Of a stretch of DNA of 64,000 bases, positions 15,701 to 64,000 are shown in pieces (position 1 is the stretch's first letter; the number at the start of each line of letters is the position of its first letter). The stretch is taken from NCBI RefSeq assembly GCF_009914755.1, contig NC_060925.1. The stretch is one strand, 5' to 3'. The notes beneath the pieces are model-generated. The model was not told where the DNA came from, ran no database searches, and worked only from the letters and a program-made list of their open reading frames with translations. A program made the position numbers and the translations under genes. This DNA comes from the human T2T-CHM13v2.0 reference genome, Homo sapiens.

Positions 15701-16199
15701 ATCTGTCTCCATAAATAGAAATTCAGGATTCTTTCTAAAATTTTAATCGAATCCCGTCGTTTCCTGGCAGGAAATCCTCCAGTGGCTTTCCAGTGCCTAC
15801 GAGTAAAATTCACACCCCCTGGGATGGCATTCAAAACCCTCTCTTATCCAGAACCTTCGATCTCTTACTTCTACTCTGCCTCTCTCCCTACTGACCTCTT
15901 TCACTGCCAGCTCCAGATACATTGAACTACTTGCAGTTCTCCTTATTCTTTCCTTTGCCTTCATAACTTAGCATAAGAGGTTCTCTTTTTAATTATACTT
16001 TCGGTTCTAGGGTACATGTGTACAATGTGCAGGTTTGTTATATAGGTATACATGTGCCATGTTGGTTTTCTGCACCCATCAACTCGTCATTTACATTAGG
16101 TATTTCTCCAAATGCTATCTCTCCCCCAGCCTCCCAGCCCCCCATCCCAAGACAGGCCCCAGTGTGTGATGTTCCCCGCCTTGTGTCCAAGTGTTCTCA

Positions 16200-19100
16200 T
16201 TGTTCAGTTCCCACCTATGGGTGAGAACATGCGGTGTTTGGTTTTCTGTCCTTGTGACAGTTTGCTCAGAATGATGGTTTCCAGCATCGTCCATGTCCCA
16301 GAAAAGGGCATGAACTCATCATTTTTATGGCTGCATTGTATTCCATGGTGTATATGTGCCACATTTTCTTAATCCAGTCTATCATTGATGGACATTTGGG
16401 TTGGTTCCAAGTCTTTGCTATTGTGAATAGTGCTGCAATAAACATATATGTGCATGTGTCTTTATAGTAGAATGATTTATAATGCTTTGGGTATATACCC
16501 AGTAATGGGATTGCTGGGTCAAATGGTATTTCTAGTTCCAGATCCATGAGGAATTGCCACACTGTCTTCCACAATGGTTGAACTAATTTACACTCCCACC
16601 AACAGTGTAAAAGCATTCCTATTTCTCCACATCCTCTCCAGCATCTGTTGTTTCCTGACTTTTTAATGATCGCCATTCTAACTGGCATGAGATGATATCT
16701 CATTGTGGCTTTGATTTGCATTTCTCTGATGACCAGTGATGATGACCATTTTTTCATGTGTCCGTTGGCTGCACAAATGTCTTCTTTTCAGAAGTGTCTG
16801 TTCATATCCTTTGCCCACTTTTTGATGGGGTTGTTTTTTTCTTGTAAATTTGTTTAAGTTCTTTGTAGATTCTGGATATTAGCCCTTTGTCAGATGAGTA
16901 GATTGCAAAAATTTTCTCCCATTCTGTAGGTTGCCTGTCCACTCTGATGGTAGTTTCTTTTGCTGTGCAGAAGCTCTTTAGCTTAATTAGATCCCATTTG
17001 TGAATTTTGGCTTTTGTTGCCATTGCTTTTGGTGTTTTACTCATGAAGTCTTTGCCCATGCCTATGTCCTGAATGGTATTGCCTAGGTTTTCTTCTAGGG
17101 TTTTTACGGTTTTAGGTCTCACATTTAAGACTTTAATCCATCTTGACTTAATTTTTGTATAAGGTGTAAGGAAGGGATCCAGTTTCAGCTTTCTACATAT
17201 GGCTAGCCAGTTTTCCCAGCACCATTTATTAAACAGGGAATCCTTTCCCCATTTCTTGTTTTTGTCAGGTATGTCAAAGATCAGATGGTTATAGATGTGT
17301 GGTGTTATTTCTGAGGCCTCTGTTCTGTTCTATTAGTCTGTATATCTGCTTTGGTACCAGAAGCATGCTGTTTTCACTACTGTAGCCTTGTAGTGTAGTT
17401 TGAAGTCAGGTAGCGTGATGCCTCCAGCTTTGTTCTTTTGGCTTAGGATTGTCTTGGCTATGTGGACTCTTTTTTGGTTCCATATGAACTTTAAAGTAGT
17501 TTTTTCCAATTCTGTGAAGAAAGTCATTGGTAGCTTGATGGGGATGGCATTGAATCTGTAAATTATCTTGGGCAGTATGGCCATTTTCACGATATTGATT
17601 CTTCCTGTCCATGAGCATGGAATGTTCTTCCATTTGTTTGTGTCCTCTTTTATTTCAGTAAGCAGTGGTTTGTAGTTCTCCTTGAAGGGGTCATTCACAT
17701 CCCTTGTAAGATGGATTCCTAGGTATTTTATTCTCTTTGTAGCAATTGTGAATTGGAGTTCACTCATGATTTGGCTCTCTGTTTGTCTGTTGTTGGTGTA
17801 TAGGAATCCTTGTGATTTTTGCACATTGATTTTGTACCATGAGACTTCACTGAAGTTGCTTATCGGCTTAAGGAGATTTTGGGCTGAGATGATGGGGTTT
17901 TCTAAATATATGATCATGTCATCTGTAAACAGGGACAATTTGACTTCCTCTTTTCCTAATTGAATACCCTTTATTTCCTTCTCCTGCCTGATTGCTCTGG
18001 CCAGAACTTCCAATACTATGTTGAATAGGAGTGGTGAGAGAGGGCATCCCTGTCTTGTGCCAGTTTTCAAAGGGAATGCTTCCAGTTTTTGCCCATTCAG
18101 TATGATATTGGCTGTGGGTTTGTCATAGATAGCTCTCATTATTTTGAGATACGTCCCATCAGTACCTAGTTTATTGAGAGTTTTTGGCATGAAGGGCTGT
18201 TGAATATTGTCAAAGGCCTTTACAGCATCTATGGAGATAATCGTGTGGTTTATGTCGTTGGTTCTGTTTATGTGATGGATTACGTTTACTGATTTGAGTA
18301 TGTTGAATAAGACTTGCATCCCAGGGATGAAGCCAACTTGATCATGGTGGAAAAGATTTTGATGTGCTGTTGGATTCGGTTTGCCAGTATTTTATTGAGG
18401 ATTTTCACATCGATGTTCATCAGGGATATTGGTCTAAAATTCTCTTTTTTTGTTGTGTCTCTGCCAGGCTTTGGTATCAGGATGATGCTGGCTTCATAAA
18501 ATGAGTTAGTGAAGATTCCCTCTTTTTCTATTGATTGGAATAGTTTCAGAAGGAATGGTACAAGCTCCTCTTTGTACCTCTGGTAGAATTCAGCTGTGAA
18601 TCTGTCTGGTCCTGGAGTTTTTTTTTTTTTTTTTTGGAGGGTAGGCTATTAATTACTGCCTCAACTTCAGAACCTGTTATTCGTCTATTCAGAGATTCCA
18701 CTTCTTCCTGGTTTAGTCTTGGGAGGGTATATGTGTCCAGGAATTTATCCATTTACTCTAGATTTTTTAGTTTATTTGCATAGAGGTGTTTATAGTATTC
18801 TCTGATGGTAGTTTGTATTTCTGTGGGATTGGTGGTGATATCCCCTTTTCATTTTTTATTGTGTCTATTTGATTCTTCTCTCTTTTCTTCTTTATTAGTC
18901 TTGCCAGCTGTCTATCAATTTTGTTGATCTTTTCAAAAAATCAGCTCCTGGATTCATTGATTTTTTTGAAGGATTTTTCGTTTCTCTATCTCCTTCAATT
19001 CCACTCAGATCTTAGTTATTTCTTGCCTTCTGCTAGCTTTTGAATTTGTTTGGTCTTGCTTCTGTAGTTCTTTTAATTGTGATGTTAGGGTGTCGATTTT

Positions 19101-62100: not shown

Positions 62101-64000
62101 ATCTATGACAAACCCACAGCCAATATCATACTGAATGGGCAAAAACTGGAAGCATTCCCTTTGAAAACTGGCACAAGACAGGGATGTCCTCTCTCACCAC
62201 TCCTATTCAACATAGTGTTGGAAGTTGTGGCCAGGGCAATCAGGCAGGGGAAAGAAATAAAGAGTATTCATTAGAAAAAGAGGAAGTCAAATTGTCCCTG
62301 TTTGCAGATGTCATGATTGTATATCTAGAAAAACCCCATCATCTCAGCCCAAAATCTCCTTAAGCTGATAAGCAACTTCAGCAAAGTCTCAGGATACAAA
62401 ATCAATGTGCAAAAATCACAAGCATTCTTATACACCACTAACAGACAAACAGAGAGCCGAATCATGAGTGAAATCCCATTCACAATTGCTTCAAAGAGAA
62501 TAAAATACCTGGAATCCAACTTACCAGGGATGTGAAGGACCTCTTCAAGGAGAACTACAAACCACTGCTCAATGAAATAAAAGAGGACACAAACAAATGG
62601 AAGAACATTCCATGCTCATGGATAGGAAGAATCAGTATCATGAAAATGGTCATACTGCCCAAGGTAATTTATAGATTCAATGCCATCCCCATCAAGCTAA
62701 CAATGACTTTCTTCACAAAATTGGAAAAAACTACTTTAAAGTTGATATGGAACAAAAAAAGAGCCTACATTGCCAAGTCAATCCTAAGGCAAAAGAACAA
62801 AGCTGGAGGCATCACGCTACCTGACTTCAAACTATACTACAAGGCTACAGTAACCAAAACAGCATGGTACTGGTACCAAAACAGAGATATAGATCAATGG
62901 AACAGAACAGAGCCCTCAGAAATAATACCACAAATCTACAACCATCTGATCTTTGACAAACCTGACAAAAACAAGAAATGGGGAAAGGATTCCCTATTTA
63001 ATCAATGTTGCTGGGAAAACTGGCTAGCCATATGTAGAAAGCTGAAACTGGATCCCTTCCTTATACCTTATATGAACATTAATTCAAGATGGATTAAAGA
63101 CTTATATGTTAGACCTAAAACCATAAAAACCCTAGAAGAAAACCCAGGCAATACCATTCAGGACGTAGGCATGGGCAAGGACTTCATGTATAAAACACCA
63201 AAAGCAATGGCAACAAAAGACAAAATTGACAAATGGGATGTAATCAAACTAAAGAGCTTCTGCACAGCAAAAGAAACTACCATCAGAGTGAACAGGCAAC
63301 CTACAGAGTGGGAGAACATTTTTGCAATCTACTCATCTGACAAAGGGCTAATATCCAGAATCTACAATGAACTCAAACAAATTTACAAGAAAAAAACAAA
63401 CAACCCCATCAAAAAGTGAACAAAGGATATGAACAGACACTTCTCAAAAGAAGACATTTATGCAGCCAAAAGACACATGAAAAAATGCTCATCATCACTG
63501 GCCATCAGAGAAATGCAAATCAAAACCACAATGAGATACCATCCCACACCAGTTAGAATGGCGATCATTAAAAAGTCAGGAAACAACAGGTGCTGGAGAG
63601 GATGTGGAGATATAGGAACACTTTTACACTGTTGGTGGGACTGTAAACTAGTTCAACCATTGTGGAAGTCAGTGTGGCGATTCCTCAGGGATCTAGAACT
63701 AGAAATACCATTAGACCCAGCCATCCCATTACTAGGTATATATCCAAAGGATTATAAATCATGCTGCTATAAAGACTCATGTACACGTATGTTTATTGCG
63801 GCGCTATTCACAATAGCAAAGACTTGGAACCAACCCAAATGTCCATCAATGATAGACTGGATTAACAAAATGTGGCATATATACACCACGGAATACTATG
63901 CAGCCATAAAAAGGATGAGTTCATGTCCTTTGTAGGGACATGGATGAAGCTAGAACCATCATTCTCAGCAAACTATCACAAGGACAAAAAACCAAACACC
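58070..64000 (+). mobile_element. LINE-1 (L1PA4-like) with intact 5' end, running off the window; inactive
   Basis: 5' GGCAGCCAAGATGGCCGAATAGG. ORF1 ATG at 59127 has TAG at codon 5. ORF2 from 60207 is in several fragments (352 aa, 295 aa, 168 aa). Confidence 0.97.

What the first reader, a model, noticed from the sequence alone, without database searches (positions are those of the whole stretch)
15989..64000. Locus-wide patchwork of shared variants among L1s of different ages: a candidate local L1 gene-conversion network
Seen: five L1s with distinct flanks, and different 3'UTR subfamily signatures where the 3' end is visible (A 15989-22127, B 25268-29436, C 37315-39538, D 44306-50510, E 58070-end), share unusual bases in conflicting combinations. 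All four ORF1-bearing copies read ACCAACGTTGAA (RFTNVEM) at about 20440, 26080, 48813 and 59795, where I recall AAA/AAG (RFTKVEM); this creates a CpG that none has lost. A+D share WIKRQD (about 19936, 48304), KLHYKA (about 17394, 45761), TTGAAGGGGTC (about 17685, 46050) and a short deletion giving [10 protein letters not shown]+E share GRISIM (about 27860, 62635) and AATCAAAAAAAGTCC (about 26698, 61605). C+D+E share [10 protein letters not shown] (about 37702, 45490, 63105). C+D share RETQIK. Inference: one tree cannot explain A+D, B+E and C+D+E together, so this points to repeated short-tract exchange between neighbouring copies after insertion. Conversion between repeats is established; this density across subfamilies in one locus is what looks unusual. 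Consensus states are recalled from memory.
Basis: partly seen in the sequence, partly recalled or inferred. Interest (0 to 1): 0.85.

Follow-up and report, generated by a model that had tools for sequence, protein, structure and literature searches.

The report
Mostly chance sharing among neighbouring L1s
Five old L1 retrotransposon copies in a KCNH1 intron mostly share "unusual" bases no more often than unrelated copies do; only the two adjacent full-length copies (and perhaps a nearby fragment) look as if they exchanged short stretches of DNA after insertion, a known kind of event.

Summary
The "locus-wide conversion network" does not hold up at base level. I compared the local copies with 40 unlinked L1 copies and with genome-wide pattern counts.

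- **A+D, A+E, B+D, B+E, A+B:** rare-allele sharing lies inside the unlinked range.
- **"KKTTPSKSG deletion":** this is the majority state.
- **KLHYKA allele:** it is in 460 of 12,627 genomic copies.
- **Donation from A or B:** the younger copies carry no excess of old-type alleles.

Two things remain.

- **D and E:** these inverted full-length copies, 7.5 kb apart, share 16 rare alleles (2.71/kb). 0 of 190 unlinked young pairs reach this. Several haplotypes are found only in D and E genome-wide. Blocks conflict with E's unlinked relative. Private mutations are halved near the shared sites. Short, old non-allelic gene conversion fits best. Tests for long or pervasive tracts are negative.
- **The ACG codon:** it is rare (35 of 7,769) yet present in all four ORF1 copies. 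This is unexplained, and 7 of 3,000 unlinked quartets show a comparable coincidence.

The parts
15989..22127 (-). L1 copy A: full-length, older rung of the L1PA ladder. Flanked by a 13/14 target-site duplication at 15975-15988 and 22128-22141.
   Evidence: 86.9% to D; tree position; TSD
25268..29436 (+). L1 copy B: the oldest, with internal deletions. CpG survival is only 4 of 42.
37315..39538 (+). L1 copy C: a 3' fragment with a 58-bp inverted 5' piece and an internal roughly 350-bp tandem duplication. It shares 4 rare alleles with D and 1 with E.
44306..50510 (-). L1 copy D: full-length. Perfect 14-bp target-site duplication at 44292-44305 and 50511-50524.
58070..64000 (+). L1 copy E: full-length, with its 3' end beyond the window. 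It sits head-to-head with D across a 7.5-kb spacer and is a slightly later ladder stage than D.
48462..48870 (-). D side of the best candidate exchange block (D-columns 1641-2049). It carries ACG, 1739T, 1798T, 1826G and 2039G. D-E divergence here is 2.7-3.7%, against 7.6% overall.
59739..60147 (+). E side of the same block.
20436..20447 (-). ACG (Asn) codon context in A.
26075..26086 (+). ACG codon context in B.
48808..48819 (-). ACG codon context in D.
59790..59801 (+). ACG codon context in E.
29927..30962 (-). L1 3' fragment F, young type. It shares no rare alleles with the others.

Best explanation
The window holds independent L1PA insertions of different ages. Most of the 'shared unusual bases' are ordinary: subfamily or majority states, low-frequency alleles found all over the genome, and the few parallel mutations expected between any two old copies.

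The exception is the pair D and E. They are two full-length copies in inverted orientation, 7.5 kb apart, inserted at neighbouring stages of the L1PA succession, so they were about 98-99% alike when the second arrived (inferred). After insertion they exchanged several short stretches, tens to a few hundred bases, by non-allelic gene conversion, probably in both directions and long ago. This copied each copy's lineage-specific and early private mutations into the other. Fragment C may have taken part at a lower level. A and B did not detectably take part. Their ACG codon is either a chance coincidence or one or two very short transfers.
For: Independent insertions: TSDs of A and D, and no flank homology.

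Most sharing is ordinary: A-D 7, A-E 5, B-D 3, B-E 0 and A-B 2 rare shared sites all lie within the spread for 34-36 unlinked copies. KKTTPSKSG is the majority state. 4750C is in 460 of 12,627 copies. A's 3444G haplotype occurs in 54 unlinked copies. 690 of 3,000 unlinked quartets have a rare allele shared by at least 3 members.

D-E is exceptional:
- They share 16 rare alleles over 5,912 bp (2.71/kb). 0 of 36 unlinked copies reach this with D or with E, and 0 of 190 unlinked young-young pairs do (maximum 1.79/kb).
- Some haplotypes are exclusive to D and E genome-wide. ACG+1739T: none of the 16 other 1739T hits lies beside an ACG-class hit. GAAGAAATGG: 2 of 57 hits.
- They are not siblings. 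E carries the younger allele at about 21 diagnostic 5'UTR/ORF1 sites where D has the older one.
- Genealogy conflicts in blocks. The unlinked relative L049 shares the coiled-coil 'young' alleles and rare 3720C and 3967C with E only, but lacks 12 rare alleles that E shares with D.
- There is a four-gamete violation. Unlinked copies carry either 1798T+1826G (5 copies) or 3654C+3927A (L049). Only D and E carry both.
- Private-mutation density of D+E is 1.1-1.2% within 20-40 bp of the shared sites, against 2.28% at random sites (0.1-0.6% of 2,000 permutations are as low). Ten unlinked controls are flat, 2.35-2.46% against 2.33%.

Precedent: elevated conversion between Alu copies less than 10 kb apart (passage in PMC6598467 citing Aleshin and Zhi 2010). 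The NAGC rate is 2.5e-7 per nucleotide per generation with a mean tract of 250 bp, CI 63-1000, slowing as copies diverge (abstract and results passages of bioRxiv 10.1101/135152).
Against: - There are no long or recent tracts. The longest-fragment test gives D-E p=0.006, but unlinked pairs score alike (E-L029 0.002, D-L038 0.01). D-E differences are not over-dispersed (1.38 against a control mean of 1.60).
- The identical run around shared sites is only marginally long: 47 bp against 36 +/- 7, p=0.077.
- CpG fates are no more concordant in D-E (0.45) than in 39 control pairs (0.42 +/- 0.06).
- Shared-rare and diagnostic-difference sites alternate within less than 40 bp in places (for example columns 3044/3059/3083/3098). 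That needs very short or patchy tracts.
- At least 6 of the 17 shared alleles are source-lineage markers also seen in unlinked copies. The 1798T+1826G lineage itself spans D-type to E-type coiled-coil states, so reticulate evolution among source elements could mimic part of the signal.
- 3 of 658 unlinked pairs in my ACG-selected sample share rare alleles at or above the D-E rate.
- The control set of 40 copies was selected for the ACG-class allele. It is not a random sample, and no Dfam consensus was available.
Confidence: 0.6

Rival explanations
1. Descent plus chance. D and E (and C) descend from one minor, reticulately evolving source lineage that carried the shared alleles, and they happened to insert side by side. 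There was no post-insertion exchange. The ACG in A and B is coincidence.
For: Several shared alleles are lineage markers present in unlinked copies: 1798T+1826G in 5 copies; 3654C+3927A in L049; 1091G+1096A in one C3 hit. That lineage spans D-type to E-type coiled-coil states. Unlinked copies are themselves mosaic. There is no CpG concordance excess and no long tracts. 3 of 658 unlinked pairs share as much as D-E.
Against: The exclusive haplotypes have only two carriers in the genome, both here. The five 1798T+1826G relatives read AAAG or AAGG and have 1739A. L049 lacks 12 of the D/E alleles. Two members of such a tiny group landing 7.5 kb apart by chance has odds of roughly 1e-5 per pair (inference). 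The halved private-mutation density near the shared sites is larger than unsampled lineage alleles could produce.
Confidence: 0.22
2. One reading: a locus-wide conversion network linking all five copies across subfamilies, including A and B.
For: The ACG codon is in 4 of 4 ORF1-bearing local copies against 35 of 7,769 genome-wide. 0 of 39 best B-like and 0 of 39 best A-like genomic matches lie at an ACG-class position. Four insertion-age CpGs would all survive with probability about 0.004 (survival A 0.27, B 0.10, D 0.40, E 0.35), so the allele seems younger than some of the copies.
Against: There is no excess of rare shared alleles for any pair involving A or B and no excess of old-type alleles in D, E or C. 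Apart from ACG, the only site shared by at least 3 copies (3444) turns out to be a different haplotype in A. Long identical runs around the ACG site are generic, because local copies show the same against unlinked ACG copies. 7 of 3,000 unlinked age-matched quartets also share an all-four rare allele somewhere, so with a genome-wide look-elsewhere effect the ACG coincidence is not decisive.
Confidence: 0.12
3. An assembly or polishing mosaic created the shared alleles.
For: None from my calls.
Against: The copies differ by 7-18%, far too much for read mis-assignment. Shared alleles are interleaved with dozens of differences. Some shared alleles have since decayed in one copy, for example 1826 CCG in E against CTG in D, which indicates age.
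Confidence: 0.02

Closest known systems
Non-allelic gene conversion between neighbouring Alu elements (Aleshin and Zhi 2010, as described in a passage of PMC6598467)
   Same: Post-insertion exchange between nearby dispersed repeats, stronger within 10 kb, seen as shared or mosaic diagnostic and private mutations.
   Different: Here the partners are 6-kb L1 copies in inverted orientation. The evidence comes from one locus, not a genome-wide distance trend. The tracts are old and short, so they are less clear-cut.
NAGC between human gene duplicates (Harpak et al., bioRxiv 10.1101/135152; abstract and results passages read)
   Same: Paralog-shared alleles that are rare elsewhere, local genealogy switches, and a rate and tract length compatible with a handful of events over tens of millions of years that stop as the copies diverge.
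   Different: The partners are not duplicates of one another but separate insertions of a repeat family.
Arm-to-arm conversion in inverted repeats or palindromes (PMC3723533; search listing and abstract only)
   Same: Inverted orientation with a short spacer, which favours intrachromatid exchange.
   Different: Palindrome arms stay above 99.9% identical with multi-kilobase tracts. D and E are 92% identical with no long tracts.
Mosaic or recombinant L1 source lineages and L1 gene conversion in rodents (Burton et al. 1991, seen only as a reference in PMC5640379; the rest is recalled)
   Same: Non-nested combinations of diagnostic alleles among copies. These are seen here among unlinked copies too.
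   Different: That process acts on source elements before insertion and predicts no dependence on where the copies lie.

Membership tests
Independent L1 retrotransposition insertions | Each copy has its own target-site duplication and A-rich tail | tested here: met
   D has a 14/14 TSD and A a 13/14 TSD. A-rich tails are at the 3' ends of B, C and D. E's 3' end lies outside the window. No TSD was found for C.
Segmental duplication of an L1-bearing block | Homology extends into the unique flanks | tested here: not met
   Self-BLAST alignments stop at the L1 ends. The only other repeats found are Alu-sized.
Non-allelic gene conversion (D-E) | The partners share alleles that are rare or absent in other family members | tested here: met
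   16 rare alleles are shared. 0 of 36 and 0 of 190 controls reach the rate. Some haplotypes are exclusive genome-wide.
Non-allelic gene conversion (D-E) | Genealogy switches along the sequence | tested here: met
   (E, L049) blocks alternate with (D, E) blocks. There is a four-gamete violation between the two marker pairs.
Non-allelic gene conversion (D-E) | Divergence is locally reduced inside the tracts | tested here: inconclusive
   Private-mutation density is halved near shared sites (p 0.001-0.006, controls flat). But run length gives p=0.077, there is no over-dispersion and no CpG concordance excess.
Non-allelic gene conversion (D-E) | Orthologous copies in outgroup species lack the transferred alleles in the acceptor | not testable with these tools
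   No other primate assemblies were available.
Non-allelic gene conversion (D-E) | GC bias of the transferred alleles | tested here: inconclusive
   Of the 16 shared alleles listed (the ACG site is not in that list), 6 are weak-to-strong, 4 strong-to-weak and 6 neutral (my count). This is too few to judge.
Locus-wide conversion network including A and B | Excess rare-allele sharing for pairs involving A or B | tested here: not met
   A-D 7, A-E 5, B-D 3, B-E 0 and A-B 2 are all within the unlinked range. There is no excess of old-type alleles in the younger copies.

The most novel reading that the evidence does not exclude
The ORF1 site is a small local conversion sink. A single A/G>C change that completes the 8-bp palindrome CAACGTTG arose in one copy. 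It was then copied by very short, GC-biased tracts into three neighbours of very different age within 40 kb, and repeated conversion has kept the CpG intact in all four. If so, ultra-short exchange between 87-92% identical L1s would be more frequent than the usual tract-based tests can detect.
Probability: 0.12. Interest if true: 0.55.

Novelty: new member of a known kind. Interest (0 to 1): 0.27.

Why it matters
Sharing of motifs between neighbouring repeats, judged by eye, greatly overstates local exchange. Parallel mutation, low-frequency alleles and mosaic source lineages explain most of it here. If the D-E case is real, it is a documented example of old, short-tract conversion between adjacent full-length L1s. 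That is relevant to dating L1 copies by divergence and to assigning subfamilies, but it does not change what is known about repeat evolution.

Tried and rejected
- **Segmental duplication of an A/B unit into D/E:** rejected, because there is no flank homology and the TSDs differ.
- **ACG as an ancestral subfamily state eroded by CpG decay:** rejected. TG, CA and TA forms add only 50 copies. Other single-base variants of the same 17-mer each appear once among the first 100 of the 7,769 matches, so ACG is not a mutation hotspot either.
- **ACG common in A-like or B-like subfamilies:** 0 of 39 and 0 of 39 best matches lie at ACG-class positions. 17 of the A-like matches are one tandem array.
- **L1-mediated inversion between D and E by crossover:** rejected, because D's two TSD copies are still paired.
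- **A or B as donors to D, E or C:** there is no excess of old-type alleles.
- **Genome-wide nearest-neighbour search with D's block:** uninformative. Only 40 of 5,274 candidates were scored, and many unlinked copies are 95-97% identical.
- **Long run of identity around the ACG site as evidence of a tract:** the run is generic to this conserved part of ORF1.
- **A random sample of 80 further copies:** The control set is therefore the 40 ACG-class copies.
- **Linked-marker patterns longer than 35 places:** not accepted by the tool.
- **Literature:** a five-phrase search for L1-L1 gene conversion found one paper, and only as a reference-list entry. No supplements were read.
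Full report
**What is there**

The window is an L1-rich stretch of a KCNH1 intron.

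A self-comparison shows no segmental duplication. Alignments between the copies stop at the L1 ends, and identities are those of old, separately decayed copies: A-D 86.9%, A-E 86.0%, D-E 92.3%, C-D/E about 93%, B 82-89% to the rest. D is flanked by a perfect 14-bp target-site duplication and A by a 13/14 one. There are three further L1 fragments, at 12293-12735, 29927-30962 and 32174-33193.

**Controls available**

No Dfam library was on hand. I used two controls.

- *Whole-genome pattern counts.* These come from the window's own assembly.
- *40 unlinked L1 copies fetched from that assembly.* They are the 31 other copies with the ACG allele plus 9 with its CpG-decay forms. The set is therefore conditioned on one site. 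For all other sites it behaves like a spread of L1PA copies over the usual ladder-shaped tree, from B-like (old) to copies about 96% identical to each other.

All copies were projected on D's coordinates. In most controls I dropped L034 and L039, which are near-identical duplicates of L030 and L038. I dropped L043 where coverage was too short. C, F, G, H and L043 were left out of the tree.

**Most of the claimed sharing is ordinary**

At peptide level the A+D, B+E and C+D+E motifs looked absent from all 40 unlinked copies. That is because a 6-10-residue window combines several sites. Base by base:

- A+D is three single-base coincidences (columns 2207, 4457, 4750).
- 'KKTTPSKSG' is the majority state, not a shared deletion.
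- B+E is two transitions, each also present in 2 of about 35 unlinked copies, plus a CpG decay.
- C+D+E is one A>T site.
- C+D 'RETQIK' is one T>C site.
- The KLHYKA allele is in 460 of 12,627 genomic matches.

I then counted alleles shared by a pair but carried by at most 1 other unlinked copy.

| Pair | Shared rare sites | Unlinked copies reaching the same rate |
|---|---|---|
| A-D | 7 | 4 of 36 (with A) |
| A-E | 5 | 6 of 36 |
| B-D | 3 | within range |
| B-E | 0 | within range |
| A-B | 2 | within range |

The younger copies also carry no excess of old-subfamily alleles: D 4/100, E 2/94, C 1/22, against 0-9% in 20 unlinked copies. So nothing suggests that A or B donated sequence.

The only non-ACG site shared by three of A, B, D and E (column 3444) is a different haplotype in A. 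That haplotype is found in 54 unlinked copies, whereas the D/E form occurs only in D and E. 690 of 3,000 unlinked age-matched quartets have such a three-way site.

The 'no single tree fits' argument is not specific to this locus either. Unlinked intermediates (L029, L037, L038, L040) show block-wise mosaics of diagnostic alleles. A minor lineage marked by 1798T+1826G spans the ORF1 coiled-coil transition.

**D and E stand out**

They share 16 rare alleles over 5,912 aligned bases (17 with the ACG site), spread from column 492 to 5021. No unlinked copy reaches this rate with D or with E (0 of 36 each), and none of 190 unlinked young-young pairs does (maximum 1.79 against 2.71 per kb). 3 of all 658 unlinked pairs do, and those are sub-lineage siblings.

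Genome-wide the alleles are rare: 5021T 53 hits, 3654C 54, 3927A 184, 1739T 18. Some are inherited lineage markers:

- 1798T+1826G occurs in five unlinked copies.
- 3654C+3927A occurs in one, L049.
- 1091G+1096A occurs in one further hit.

But those relatives read AAAG or AAGG at the codon and have 1739A. L049 lacks 12 of the D/E alleles. ACG+1739T and the 3442A/3444G form occur together only in D and E.

D and E are not siblings. E has the younger allele at about 21 diagnostic 5'UTR/ORF1 sites where D has the older. L049 groups with E at the coiled-coil sites and at rare 3720C and 3967C, in blocks that alternate with the D/E-shared blocks. Unlinked copies carry one or the other marker pair, and only D and E carry both.

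So some recombination is required. Because the only carriers of the combined haplotype lie 7.5 kb apart in inverted orientation, exchange between them after insertion is the simplest account.

In support, private mutations of D and E are half as dense within 20-40 bp of the shared sites (1.1-1.2% against 2.28%; 0.1-0.6% of permutations are as low). Ten unlinked controls show no dip there. Columns 1651-1950 differ by only 2.7%, against 7.6% overall.

**What speaks against a strong version**

- A longest-fragment test is no more extreme for D-E than for some unlinked pairs, and D-E differences are not over-dispersed.
- The identical run around shared sites is only marginally long (p=0.077).
- CpG fates are no more concordant than in controls (0.45 against 0.42).
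- Shared and differing sites alternate within less than 40 bp in places.

Any exchange was therefore short-tract, limited and old. A source-level explanation (a minor reticulate lineage) cannot be excluded for part of the signal. It would then need a chance side-by-side landing of its only two known members, which is unlikely.

**The ACG codon**

35 of 7,769 genomic matches carry it, and 4 of these are the four ORF1-bearing copies here. With decay products the class is 85: 35 ACG, 37 ATG, 11 ACA and 2 ATA by my count of the listing. It is not a hotspot (first 100 rows) and is not typical of A-like or B-like copies (0 of 39 each).

CpG survival in the four copies (0.27, 0.10, 0.40, 0.35) makes joint survival of an insertion-age CpG unlikely, at about 0.004.

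Against this, no flanking marker is co-shared with A or B, and the long identical runs there are generic. 7 of 3,000 unlinked quartets show an all-four rare allele somewhere, at a looser rarity threshold. With many L1-dense windows scanned, chance is not excluded. I leave it as unexplained, with very short transfers as the alternative.

**Comparison with what is known**

Conversion between neighbouring dispersed repeats is established for Alu, with higher rates below 10 kb (passage in PMC6598467). NAGC parameters for human duplicates, 2.5e-7 per nucleotide per generation with about 250-bp tracts and slowing with divergence (bioRxiv 10.1101/135152), would allow a handful of early events between two 6-kb copies that were nearly identical at first.

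L1 conversion is in the older literature: Burton et al. 1991, which I saw only as a reference. A phrase search for L1-L1 conversion found nothing else. Subfamily names (roughly L1PA4-8) and the history of ORF1 coiled-coil evolution are recalled, not tested.

**Verdict**

What is left is a plausible, modest case of old short-tract conversion between two adjacent inverted full-length L1s, and one odd codon.

Noticed in passing
G000:C11:94153615-94244196 (seen): 17 equally spaced matches (5,633-bp period), all 93% identical to A's ORF1 segment. This is a tandem array whose unit contains an L1 ORF1 piece.
   Followed up: no
L037, L040, L038, L039 (G000:C23:100.25-100.90 Mb); L015, L016 (G000:C4:84.02 and 84.19 Mb): The ACG-class allele forms other small clusters. 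L038 and L039 are near-identical duplicates. L040-L038, about 200 kb apart, is the top-sharing pair among the 190 young-young pairs (11 rare alleles), and L015-L016, 170 kb apart, ranks third. Proximity-linked relatedness may therefore not be unique to this window.
   Followed up: partly
L030 (G000:C14:9.75 Mb) and L034 (G000:C22:12.44 Mb): Two L1 copies on different chromosomes share 96 private alleles. They are copies of one duplicated block, probably on acrocentric short arms.
   Followed up: no
window 20438-20445, 26077-26084, 48810-48817, 59792-59799: The ACG change turns CAA[A/G]GTTG into the perfect 8-bp palindrome CAACGTTG. A quasi-palindrome correction could favour this change, although genome-wide it is no commoner than other single-base variants.
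   Followed up: partly
window 37315-39538 (copy C): C begins with a 58-bp piece of ORF2 in inverted orientation, as twin priming would leave, and contains an internal tandem duplication of about 350 bp (38125-38809 against 38477-39162, 95.8%). No target-site duplication was seen.
   Followed up: no
L057-L060, L049, L037, L038, L040 (D-columns 1195-1616): Among unlinked copies, all four combinations of 1798T+1826G with old or young ORF1 coiled-coil alleles occur. Source L1 lineages active during the coiled-coil replacement therefore recombined or converted one another.
   Followed up: partly
window 12048-12342 and 12293-12735: The annotated RefSeq silencer abuts and overlaps the 3' end of a young-type L1 fragment (G), which is 97% identical to fragment F at 29927-30962.
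   Followed up: no
L024 (G000:C8:7.92 Mb) and L033 (G000:C17:29.15 Mb): This unlinked pair shares 17 rare alleles (4.8/kb), more than D-E. It is an example of sibling copies from one minor source, both carrying ACG, so part of the ACG class is inherited rather than recurrent.
   Followed up: no
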